DNA of 64,000 nucleotides, taken from Octopus vulgaris (lineage: Eukaryota). The notes beneath the pieces are model-generated. The model worked only from the letters and a program-made list of their open reading frames with translations, did not search any database and was not told the origin of the DNA. Positions 5,986 through 8,423 of the stretch are shown here, in pieces. Location of the stretch: positions 3,596,001 to 3,660,000 of the forward strand of contig OX597823.1 of the NCBI GenBank assembly GCA_951406725.2. Direction: 5' to 3'. Position numbers and translations under genes: made by a program. Each line of letters starts with the position of its first letter. Positions within the stretch are counted from its first letter, which is position 1.

Positions 5986-6423
5986 ATTTCAAGTGAAGGG
6001 ACAGGGGATCCACTCTGCCTAGACATTTCATCTTCCTAAAAAAACTGGCCCATTCAAGCATGGAAAAATAGATATTATAATGATGATGATATATACTTAT
6101 GATATTAACATATATAATATCAAGGTATTGTAATAAACAGTGTACTTTCAAGATATACAATATTGAGGTGTAGCAATAATATTTGTACATTTAATATCAA
6201 TCTATATCAATGATAAGGCAGCAAGCTGGTGGAACCATTAGCAGGCTGGGGCAAAATGCTTAGTAGCATTTCATCCATTTTTATGTTGAGTTCAAATTCT
6301 GCCAAGGTCGACTTTGCCTTTTTTCCTTTTGGGATTGATAAAATAAGTACAAGTTGAACACAGGGGTCAATTATTTACATTATTTACATTTGATGGATAT
6401 TGGTCTTCATCTTGTTTGCTGTT

Positions 6424-6469
6424 AACACAATGTTTCGGCTGATATACCTTCCAGCTTTCATCAGGTGTC
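6424..6469 (-). ncRNA. Minimal type-I hammerhead ribozyme motif
   Basis: Minus strand: GACAC CUGAUGA AAGCUG-GAAGGUAUAU-CAGCC GAAAC AUU GUGUU; stem I GACAC/GUGUU; cleavage triplet is AUU here versus GUU in the sister copy. Confidence 0.75.
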
Positions 6470-6547
6470 TTGGGGGGAAATTTCCAACCTGGGTTCTCAT
6501 TCCTAACATATTTTTCAATGTTAATATTATTATTATTGTTCAGGTCA

Positions 6548-6615
6548 CTGCCTGGAATCAAACTCGGAATCTTGGGGTTAGTAGCCTGCACTCTTAACCG
6601 CTGCGCCATATGCCC
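6548..6615 (-). promoter_or_regulatory. tRNA-derived internal Pol III promoter (A and B boxes)
   Basis: Minus strand: TGGCGCAGCGG (A box), anticodon-like loop CTACTAA, GTTTGATTCC (B box, one mismatch). Confidence 0.7.
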
Positions 6616-6682
6616 ATGGGCATATAATAATAACATCAAAAAATACTTTAGGAATGAGAACCCAGGTTCGAAATTTCCCCAA

Positions 6683-6724
6683 GACACCTGATGAAGCCTA
6701 AGAGGGTATATCAGCCGAAACGTT
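6683..6724 (+). ncRNA. Minimal type-I hammerhead motif, 3' arm of stem I replaced by an inversion
   Basis: GACAC CUGAUGA AGCCUAAGAGGGUAUAUCAGCC GAAAC GUU, followed by an inverted copy instead of GUGUU; stem II weakened. Confidence 0.6.
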
Positions 6725-8423
6725 TCGGCTGATATACCCGAAAAAAGATGGGGACAAATATCCGTCAAATGTACATAATATAAATAATGTGCATAATTCC
6801 TCATCTCTTAAAGAACGGGGGTCAATGTTGTCAACTTACCCTCTTCCTTGAAATTGCTGGCCTTGTGCCAAAATTTGAAACCAATATCAATCAAAATATT
6901 GCACATGTTAATATCATAGATATGGATGATAGTGAAAGTACAATGTCAAGATATAATAATGATATTGTACTTTTAATATTGATTTATATCTATGATATTA
7001 AGATATATGATATCGATATAGCAATGGTTTGCCAGAAAGGCATTACCACAAAACATAGACAGCATCCCCCCCCCTGCTGCAAATATAAGACAAAAAGTTC
7101 TTCAATACAAGAGAGAAGAAATAATTTTTTCGCCTATAAACAGTCTTACAGGAACTAAGATGAGATCAAGGATGCAGAATTTATTAATCAATACAACCCC
7201 CACTATAGAATATCAACCAATGAAATTGCTAAGAAATATACGATCAACCAATGAAATTGCTTTCACAAGTGTAATATTGGCCAATAAAATTGTAAGTATG
7301 AAATGTAGGCCAATGAATTGCTAAACAGGAAATGTAATAGGCCAATGAAATACCTAGAAATGAATTACCAGATTGTTTATTAAGTCAATAAATTTGGGAG
7401 TTACACATCTTCAGATCAGTTTTATCTCTCTTATTACAGTTAATTATATTTTCATAAAGGAGAGCATTGTAGCTTGTGTAAAGCATTGTGATATAAGAAA
7501 AAATAAAATAATGTAAAGCAGAGAGTTTCTTATAAAGTGAAAAGAATTTATTAATCCTTTATATTTCAGGTGACTCACTCATCATCAACAGATGACAGAC
7601 AAAAAATATGATATAAAGTTTATGGCATAATCTGGCTGACTAACATCGTGCACATATGAAGCTTGCATTACAACACACATATGCACACAAGTATGCATGA
7701 GGTAACCTCTATATATTCACTCTACCTGCTAGAAAGAGCAACCAAATTTCCCTCATATCATACCAATGTTTTGGAGATTTCCTTCAGTAATGAACATTAC
7801 ACTACCATCACCGTACTGTTGGTCAGTCAAAGAAGTCAACCACATTTTCTTTGCCTTGAGACAATTGAGCCTAACTAGCAAGCTAACTGACAATTCATTA
7901 AACAATTTTATTTTGTTGCAAATGAACCAGGGACATCTCAAACCAATGGAGCTAATGAAGAGAACCCATAAACAGTCGTACAACATGGTAGAAACACCAG
8001 CTGAATTCTCCTTTTTTAGTCTTAAAAAAAATTAGCACATTAAACAAAGTAATTCTACCTACACCCACAAAAAAAAAAAAAAAAGAAAGGAATGGTCTAG
8101 GTTTGAATACCTTTTATCATAGGTGTGTACTCAATCAGAGCTGACCTGGAACTCAATTACTCAAAGGTAAGGAAGCAAATATAATACACGCTTATCTGAA
8201 GGAAATAAGACACTTTAGTATCAGTCACTAAACCTAAACAGGATTTCAATCTAAGCTGGATTTTGATTTCAGAAGTAAAACACACGAATCATACTGGACA
8301 AACCATAACTTAAGAAATCTTTGGTTATATTTGCCGAGAACAGTCCAGGAATTCTTAGCTTGTCATCACATGATACCTACTCATCCAGTTTTTATTCATG
8401 TGATTGTCTGCTTTTTTCTTCTT

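What the first reader, a model, noticed from the sequence alone, without database searches (positions are those of the whole stretch)
6372..6812. tRNA-promoter-driven hammerhead element: candidate Penelope-dependent SINE
Seen: on the minus strand a tRNA-like head (A box TGGCGCAGCGG, B box GTTTGATTCC) is followed about 80 nt later by an HHR and an AT-rich end. The insertion is a head-to-head inverted dimer centred on an 18-bp palindrome at the 5' end of the head. The right arm lacks the tRNA body but keeps the HHR and adds a tail. Established: SINEs normally borrow LINE 3' ends, while inverted 5' segments and tails are PLE hallmarks. Inference: a Pol III-transcribed, ribozyme-bearing SINE mobilised by a PLE, which is an unusual pairing. 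I cannot say whether it is already described.
Basis: partly seen in the sequence, partly recalled or inferred. Interest (0 to 1): 0.85.

Follow-up and report, generated by a model that had tools for sequence, protein, structure and literature searches.

The report
Penelope retrotransposon with built-in tRNA promoter
This short repeat is the end piece of a protein-coding Penelope-type jumping gene that carries a tRNA-derived promoter sequence in front of a hammerhead-ribozyme motif; the promoter likely lets the element make thousands of short SINE-like copies of its own end, and may even transcribe the whole element, which would be unusual for a protein-coding retrotransposon.

Summary
The sequence is real and belongs to a family with thousands of copies, but it is not a free-standing SINE. 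All 272 nt (tRNA-like head, AAT tract, minimal hammerhead, tail) are the pseudo-LTR of a Penelope/Poseidon-type element. Its 835-aa RT + GIY-YIG ORF starts 119 nt into the head-first unit and runs through the ribozyme and tail. 28 of 30 ORF-bearing copies carry at least part of the head downstream. Short and long copies show no diagnostic differences. Yet 26 of 27 arms that reach the head stop at its start, and head words outnumber words 54 nt upstream 5148 to 919. That points to a likely Pol III start there. Head-to-head inversion (69/107 insertions), a one-sided tail (59/69) and TSDs mostly 11-15 bp fit PLE integration. The 2655-nt unit has no TTTT. Among 33 comparison PLE regions, the only other one without TTTT also has A/B boxes in its pLTR, so Pol III transcription of the whole element is possible (about 0.4). 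Both ribozymes in this copy are damaged. Pol III activity and cleavage are untested, and RNA-seq was uninformative. Pol III plus hammerhead is known (Sm-alpha); I found no report of a tRNA promoter inside a PLE pLTR.

The parts
6360..6371 (+). Left target-site duplication (9 bp perfect at 6363-6371; 12 bp with one mismatch)
   Evidence: L001
6372..6615 (-). Left arm: PLE pseudo-LTR from the first base of the tRNA head to about unit position 244 (tail-less end)
6543..6615 (-). tRNA-derived head, closest to tRNA-Arg among the isotypes sampled
6598..6608 (-). A box (tRNA positions 8-19)
6554..6563 (-). B box, with a CpG-type C-to-T change against the family majority
6519..6540 (-). (AAT)n tract, variable in length among copies
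6498..6500 (-). Predicted start codon of the PLE ORF (unit position 119); in this short copy the ORF does not continue
6424..6469 (-). Minimal type I hammerhead (stem I 5 bp, extra nucleotide after A9, palindromic stem III); this copy has G10.1 and G16.2 changed to A; predicted cut between 6429 and 6428
6608..6625 (.). Perfect 18-bp palindrome at the junction of the two arms; its core is the native short palindrome at the head start
6624..6816 (+). Right arm: headless pseudo-LTR from the AAT tract through the tail
6683..6724 (+). Right hammerhead remnant: core present, 3' strand of stem I lost
6704..6739 (.). 18+18-bp fold-back centred on the stem III palindrome
   Evidence: (I9)
6793..6816 (+). 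PLE 'tail', present on this arm only, with a 4-nt deletion; in full elements it is coding sequence
6815..6826 (+). Right target-site duplication (9 bp perfect at 6818-6826)
6211..6885 (+). Unrelated host repeat, interrupted by the insertion; 11 other matches in the window

Best explanation
[quoted passage not shown] Shown: the unit is head - (AAT)n - ATG - hammerhead - tail - RT - GIY-YIG - stop - about 40 nt - next head; short copies are this same sequence and begin at the head. Inferred: Pol III starts a few bases upstream of the head, in pLTRs of full elements and probably in short copies too. It needs no terminator because a PLE reverse transcriptase starts inside the RNA (shown in vitro for Anolis Poseidon, PMC11167929). 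Inferred: the endonuclease nicks both strands about 12 nt apart; two cDNAs are primed at two start sites (about unit 244 and 272); they are joined head to head, often through short palindromes. This would give the inverted dimer, the tail on one arm and the TSD. The hammerhead is the PLE's own minimal type, predicted to need a dimer or protein help; both copies here are probably inactive.
For: Head downstream of the ORF in 28 of 30 ORF-selected copies (A box 24/30, hammerhead 24/30). Tail runs into the ORF in junction copies; near-complete pLTR-ORF-pLTR copies exist (L192, L195, L206). The majority sequence of 81 aligned pieces gives one open frame, 835 aa with the pLTR part, and a 55%-identical relative (P0003) has the same ribozyme-encoded N-terminal motif. 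Exact CpG-free 20-mers: ORF end 749, just before head 919, in head 5148, hammerhead 6611. 26 of 27 arms reaching +20 end between -20 and +20. Monomers with apparent TSDs also start there. A/B boxes fit the consensus with tRNA spacing; head scores 63.5 against tRNA-Arg versus shuffle mean 20, max 51.5. No diagnostic site between 42 long and 96 short pieces; three haplotypes in both (15:10:3 and 50:14:6); about 5% divergence in both. Inverted 69/107, one tail 59/69, TSD of 8 bp or more 48/107 versus 9/321 controls. The only common non-CpG change in the ribozyme core is at the free position N7.
Against: No direct evidence of Pol III transcription or of cleavage. RNA-seq of a related species (3 runs, 1 study) shows reads in both directions, 70-74% running on into unrelated sequence, no sharp starts or ends, and only about a 2-fold depth step at the head. 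A native 12-nt imperfect palindrome sits exactly at the head start, so snap-back could create the same peak; 5' ends spread from about -7 to +19. The share of arms passing the head is 4% by arm mapping but about 18% by word counts. Of the ORF-junction copies that reach the head, 2 start there and 2 start further upstream. Rfam recognises neither module. Arm samples come mostly from the first megabases of one chromosome.
Confidence: 0.65

Rival explanations
1. The head is a silent passenger. The PLE is transcribed by Pol II, and the short copies are ordinary 5'-truncated PLEs whose reverse transcription stalls or snaps back at the palindrome at the head start.
For: Short and long copies are the same sequence. 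Many junctions contain the extended palindrome. The right arm in the window folded back at another palindrome. Drosophila Penelope has a LINE-like internal promoter (PMC2377424, abstract). RNA-seq shows no discrete start.
Against: Perfect 8-bp palindromes elsewhere in the unit lose about 0.004-0.006 of arms per nt, against 0.028-0.046 at the head start. Monomers without fold-back also start there. It does not explain intact A/B boxes, the lack of TTTT, or a second PLE with the same two traits.
Confidence: 0.2
2. One reading: an independent tRNA-derived SINE with its own source genes took the PLE's 3' arm, and the long head-bearing PLEs are later chimeras.
For: Short copies outnumber long ones about 5- to 7-fold and have a defined start. 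The roughly 20 nt before the head in the PLE resemble a decayed inverted copy of the head, as a SINE-capture relic might. Short copies with intact boxes could act as sources.
Against: Nearly all ORF copies carry the head (28/30). No SINE-specific diagnostic positions; haplotypes are shared in similar proportions; ages are equal. In 30 head-anchored loci the head was never seen followed by a different shared body.
Confidence: 0.12

Closest known systems
Penelope/Poseidon clade PLEs (e.g. Poseidon of Anolis, PMC11167929)
   Same: One ORF with N-terminal domain, RT and C-terminal GIY-YIG; pLTRs from partial tandems; minimal hammerhead overlapping the ORF start; two 3' ends defining an optional tail; 5' inversions.
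   Different: tRNA-derived A/B-box head inside the pLTR; strong excess of copies starting at that head; no TTTT in the unit.
Schistosoma Sm-alpha / Sj-alpha (as described in PMC6765202 and PMC2770079; the original paper was not held)
   Same: tRNA-derived, apparently Pol III-transcribed, hammerhead-bearing SINE-like repeat.
   Different: Described as tandem or dispersed SINEs with a canonical hammerhead and, in the passages I saw, no partner identified. Here the hammerhead is the minimal PLE type, copies are mostly inverted dimers, and the sequence is part of the coding element.
Non-LTR retrozymes (PMC7229834; bioRxiv 10.64898/2026.07.22.740005)
   Same: Short non-coding hammerhead units derived from PLE pLTRs; this family also forms a few headless tandem arrays (L091, L094).
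   Different: Retrozymes are tandem arrays, typically with canonical hammerheads; the preprint's main text never mentions tRNA, Pol III or promoter. Here tandems are 3 of 107 insertions.
TRIMp3: Cassandra, Helenus, Ajax (PMC10886601)
   Same: Small-RNA-derived Pol III promoter inside a terminal repeat.
   Different: Those are non-autonomous LTR elements with PBS and PPT; the author argues their autonomous partners must use Pol II and should not share the LTR. Here the coding element carries the promoter motif itself.
Octopus tRNA-SINEs OK, OR1, OR2 (Ohshima and Okada 1994; not held, seen only as citations; tRNA sources recalled)
   Same: tRNA-derived head of similar kind.
   Different: OR1/OR2 are cited as CORE-SINEs; this element's body is PLE sequence. 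Their sequences could not be compared.

Membership tests
Penelope/Poseidon PLE | Single ORF with RT and C-terminal GIY-YIG | tested here: met
   One 835-aa frame; RVT_1 E 2.7e-06, below Pfam's cut-off; GIY-YIG motif seen by eye and not hit by local Pfam in the L097 copy; 2744 homologues at E<=1e-30
Penelope/Poseidon PLE | pLTRs from partial tandem copies | tested here: met
   L186, L191, L192, L195, L206
Penelope/Poseidon PLE | Optional ~30-nt tail at one end; inverted 5' copies | tested here: met
   69/107 inverted; 59/69 with tail on one arm; ends at about 241-248 and 270-272
Penelope/Poseidon PLE | Minimal type I hammerhead in the pLTR (extra nt after A9, G10.1-C11.1, palindromic 15.2-16.2) | tested here: met
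   Family majority fits the description in PMC4209133; the window's own copies are damaged
Penelope/Poseidon PLE | Self-cleavage of the ribozyme | not testable with these tools
   No read ends at the predicted site, in libraries that could not be expected to show them
Penelope/Poseidon PLE | No Zn-finger-like linker of Neptune/Nematis; placement with named reference elements | tested here: inconclusive
   No such linker seen, unlike the 781-aa family; tree has no named reference elements
tRNA-derived SINE | tRNA-derived head with A and B boxes | tested here: met
tRNA-derived SINE | Transcribed by Pol III | not testable with these tools
   Indirect only: 5'-end peak; RNA-seq uninformative
tRNA-derived SINE | Short, non-coding, high copy, TSD-flanked | tested here: met
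   272 nt; 5148 exact head words; TSD 48/107
tRNA-derived SINE | Own lineage that shares only a 3' segment with its partner | tested here: not met
   Whole length shared; no diagnostic sites
tRNA-derived SINE | Poly(A) or simple-repeat 3' end | tested here: not met
   Ends at fixed PLE sites
Non-LTR retrozyme | Tandem arrays with a hammerhead in each unit | tested here: not met
   3 of 107 insertions tandem; separate headless arrays exist
Non-LTR retrozyme | Abundant circular RNA | not testable with these tools
   No suitable library
TRIMp3 (Cassandra/Helenus/Ajax) | True LTRs with PBS, PPT and 4-5 bp TSD | tested here: not met
   pLTR architecture and TSDs mostly 11-15 bp; PBS and PPT were not searched for

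The most novel reading that the evidence does not exclude
An autonomous, protein-coding Penelope-like retrotransposon is transcribed end to end by RNA polymerase III from a tRNA promoter captured in its pseudo-LTR, has purged Pol III terminators from its 2.6-kb unit, and spawns its own SINE from the same promoter; a second, non-sister PLE (L257/L258) reached the same design independently with a different tRNA-like head.
Probability: 0.4. Interest if true: 0.9.

Novelty: new variant of a known kind. Interest (0 to 1): 0.74.

Why it matters
It gives a concrete route by which a SINE-like family can arise: a coding retroelement takes a tRNA promoter into its terminal repeat and the promoter over-produces short templates, so parasite and host element are one sequence. 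If the whole unit is a Pol III transcript, it breaks the usual division (Pol II for coding retrotransposons, Pol III for SINEs) and raises a testable question of how an uncapped RNA is translated. The family also offers thousands of natural products for testing the PLE integration model: two start sites, two-strand priming, head-to-head joining. For annotation, such repeats will be split between 'tRNA-SINE' and 'Penelope' labels unless the link is known.

Tried and rejected
One-off nested SINE: rejected; thousands of copies share head and arm. Chance hammerhead: rejected. First partner candidate, the young 781-aa GIY-YIG family found with PF01541: shares only AAT repeats with the element. An apparent alternative head in L073, L075, L082 is another repeat inserted in the AAT tract (its identity as an R4/Dong LINE end is recalled). 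Rfam scans and default ARAGORN found nothing relevant. Free-energy folding of the window's arms gave no support for tRNA or hammerhead folds (z -0.1 and +1.1). Sequencing runs: no RNA holder listed; three raw RNA runs of a related species were uninformative on starts, strand and cleavage. Viral contigs gave no relatives; prokaryote genomes gave 3 loci that I did not analyse. DNA for the closest relatives (55-68% identity) was not obtainable, so their pLTRs are unchecked. The T-run signal was checked against other bases: G4 is also absent from the unit, but is absent in 17 of 32 controls, whereas T4 is absent in 0 of 32; L257 also lacks C4. The slower tree search did not finish; FastTree was used. 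Earlier findings of the scan: none. Papers not held: Ohshima and Okada 1994, Ferbeyre 1998, Lunse 2016.

Full report
1. Observation. The minus strand carries an A box (6608-6598) and B box (6563-6554) 45 nt apart, an (AAT)n tract and a hammerhead core; a second core lies on the plus strand. The core pattern matches twice in the window against 0.01 expected. The arms meet at a perfect 18-bp palindrome (6608-6625). The dimer (6372-6814) is flanked by a 9-bp perfect, 12-bp near-perfect duplication and interrupts another repeat with 11 further matches in the window. Against the family majority, the left ribozyme has G10.1 and G16.2 changed to A. The right one lost the 3' strand of stem I to a fold-back centred on its stem III palindrome. 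Both are probably inactive (inference). Rfam and default ARAGORN see nothing.

2. Family. A genome search gave 5439 candidates, of which 40 were scored, the best at 87-91% identity over the full query. The full short unit is 272 nt. Of 120 loci from four searches, 107 distinct insertions were classified: 69 head-to-head inverted, 33 single, 3 tandem, 2 other (49 of 78 inverted in the three pattern-anchored sets). Of the 69, 59 have the tail on one arm only, 1 on both, 9 on neither. Tail-less arms end mostly at 240-248 and tailed arms at 270-272. A duplication of 8 bp or more flanks 48 of 107, against 9 of 321 displaced controls, mostly 11-15 bp. The pattern-anchored loci come from one chromosome, mostly its first megabases.

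3. The partner is the same sequence. The first candidate, a young 781-aa GIY-YIG family, shares only AAT repeats. Among 30 tail-anchored loci, two had PLE coding sequence next to the tail. Locus L092 shows RT, GIY-YIG, a stop, a short spacer, then the same head, AAT tract and hammerhead. In 30 copies chosen by ORF similarity, 24 have the A box, 24 the hammerhead and 28 at least part of the head within 1.2 kb downstream; L106 and L112 have none nearby. In 37 loci chosen by the ORF's 5' part, the tail runs directly into coding sequence in most, and L192, L195 and L206 are near-complete. The majority sequence of 81 aligned pieces is one open frame; with the pLTR part it is 835 aa from an ATG at unit position 119, through the ribozyme and tail. 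P0003, 55% identical over the RT-EN part, has the same ribozyme-encoded motif near its N-terminus. One natural copy keeps 569 codons and hits RVT_1 at E 2.7e-06, below cut-off; local Pfam did not hit its GIY-YIG, which I read by eye. No Neptune-type linker is present, so Penelope/Poseidon is the likely clade; the tree has no named references.

4. Short copies start at the head. Exact CpG-free 20-mers occur 749 times at the ORF end, 919 just before the head, 5148 in the head and 6611 in the hammerhead: about 0.8 per 115 nt on either side, but 0.18 across 54 nt at the head start. In tail- and hammerhead-anchored loci, 80 arms were mapped; 27 reach +20 and 26 of them stop between -20 and +20. Other perfect palindromes lose arms five to ten times more slowly, though hammerhead anchoring hides ends in part of that range. 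Of 30 head-anchored loci, 22 have the hammerhead downstream and 8 are cut short (seven in or after the AAT tract or ORF start, one inside the head); 1 extends far upstream and 2 about 20-26 nt. Of 30 hammerhead-anchored loci, 13 lack the head.

5. Not a separate lineage. 42 long and 96 short pieces have the same majority base at every compared position; low p-values reflect deletions in ORF-selected copies. Non-CpG divergence is about 5% in both. Three haplotypes at positions 64 and 157 occur in both classes (15:10:3 and 50:14:6). Position 157 is N7, the free position of the ribozyme core.

6. The head. Among 30 tRNA genes from this genome (seven isotypes by ARAGORN, not a full set), two tRNA-Arg genes match best, 49 of 73; score 63.5 against a shuffle mean of 20 and maximum 51.5. 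tRNA-Ala also beats its shuffles, so tRNA origin is firm and the isotype tentative.

7. T-runs. The 2655-nt unit has no run of four T: P = 0.03 under synonymous shuffling, 0.01 under base shuffling. I then checked the RT-EN regions of 32 of the 80 metagenome loci (those with longer matches) plus the 781-aa family. Only L257 has none, and L257/L258 is also the only one of 24 distinct pre-hammerhead regions with an A/B-box pair (0.005 expected), present in both its pLTRs. The two have the lowest TT ratios of 34 (0.75, 0.88). L257's head resembles tRNAs (0 of 300 shuffles for three genes) but not our head (27 of 300), and it is not sister to our element, which lies nearer to relatives with T-rich, box-less pLTRs (FastTree). 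Against: L257's full unit has two T4 runs within 200 nt after the ribozyme and also lacks C4; ours is a consensus while controls are single, partly decayed and related copies; most controls lack a complete pLTR, so their box status is unknown.

8. Expression. No RNA holder was listed. Three raw RNA runs of a related species, one study, about 6% read, gave reads in both directions about equally, 70-74% running into unrelated sequence, no sharp starts or ends and about a 2-fold step at the head. This looks like passive read-through and neither supports nor excludes Pol III.

9. Mechanism. Shown: architecture, identity of short and long copies, 5'-end peak, two 3' ends, TSDs. Inferred: a Pol III start just upstream of the head; internal RT initiation at two sites and priming on both strands, as shown in vitro for Anolis Poseidon (PMC11167929, parts 1-2 of 4 read), which also found the ribozyme protein-assisted and dispensable for insertion; head-to-head joining through palindromes. 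In the window, the left cDNA ran from the inner site to the head start; the right one began at the tail, folded back once in the ribozyme and joined without the head. Confidence 0.65; snap-back on a Pol II RNA 0.2; independent SINE 0.12. How a Pol III RNA would be translated is open. Ribozyme-driven cap-independent translation is reported for RNA viruses (PMC13725137, abstract only), but here the predicted cut lies downstream of the ATG.

10. Known systems. Minimal PLE hammerheads: PMC4209133 (parts 1-2 of 4). PLE structure and non-autonomous Chlamys elements: PMC8557442 (passages). Retrozymes: PMC7229834 (passages) and bioRxiv 10.64898/2026.07.22.740005 (part 1 of 5 and a term search; supplements closed). 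Sm-alpha as a Pol III, tRNA-derived hammerhead SINE: PMC6765202 and PMC2770079 (passages). TRIMp3: PMC10886601 (passages). Penelope promoter: PMC2377424 (abstract). Octopus repeats: PMC13282606 (part 1 of 3, passages, one supplement searched; no mention of ribozymes), PMC8967140, PMC4758252, PMC5804259, PMC4824008 (passages). That the host is an octopus is my recognition of its repeats from memory, not a tool result. Ten searches showed no report of a tRNA promoter in a PLE pLTR or of a PLE-derived tRNA SINE; for the two broad ones I saw only the top listings. Repbase, Dfam, SINEBase and most subscription journals could not be searched, so an existing library entry is quite possible.

11. Verdict. 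A real, moderately old PLE family with a tRNA-type head built into its pLTR and a large excess of head-first short copies: a new variant of a known kind, interest 0.74. The bolder reading, a fully Pol III-transcribed autonomous retrotransposon that arose at least twice, has probability about 0.4 and would merit 0.9.

Noticed in passing
L257 / L258 (JGI1357J11328_10009043), head at L258:2212-2303, hammerhead at L258:2379-2423: Intact tandem PLE (2791-nt unit, 38% identical in RT-EN) with a different tRNA-like A/B-box head in each pLTR, no T4 in the RT-EN region, and two T4 runs shortly after the ribozyme that could end a short Pol III RNA.
   Followed up: partly
L091 (G000:C2:2734379-2735928) and L094: Headless tandem arrays of the AAT-hammerhead-tail unit (eight tail matches at about 217-nt period in L091), retrozyme-like, probably made by insertion into the element's own AAT tract.
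   Followed up: partly
L185-L221, forward-arm 5' ends: ORF-bearing copies often begin 10-50 nt downstream of the predicted ribozyme cut (11 of 28 versus 2 of 17 in the 50 nt before; Fisher p 0.048, post hoc, counted by hand), a hint of cleavage in vivo or of microhomology at the 9-nt repeats.
   Followed up: partly
L098 and other long copies, about 20 nt before the head: The PLE sequence before the head resembles a decayed inverted copy of the head's first bases, possibly a relic of the capture event.
   Followed up: no
L222-L224, L037, L042: Young 781-aa RT + GIY-YIG family with a cysteine-rich linker (Neptune-like, label recalled), many equal-scoring copies, and an upstream open frame of 330-380 codons.
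   Followed up: no
L073, L075, L082; similar in L067, L196, L202: Other repeats inserted into the element's (AAT)n tract, removing the head from view; one recalled as an R4/Dong LINE end.
   Followed up: no
window 6211-6885: Host repeat, SINE-like, with 11 further matches in the window at 68-83% identity.
   Followed up: partly
window 7205-7356: Five spaced copies of a CCAAT-containing 12-26-nt motif (families D5, D6, D17).
   Followed up: no
L011:911-983: Weak Rfam Hammerhead_HH9 match (E 0.025, 25 bits, far below gathering score), unrelated to this family.
   Followed up: no
L272:4074-4146: tRNA-Arg-like sequence about 915 nt downstream of a distant PLE ORF, not in front of a hammerhead.
   Followed up: no
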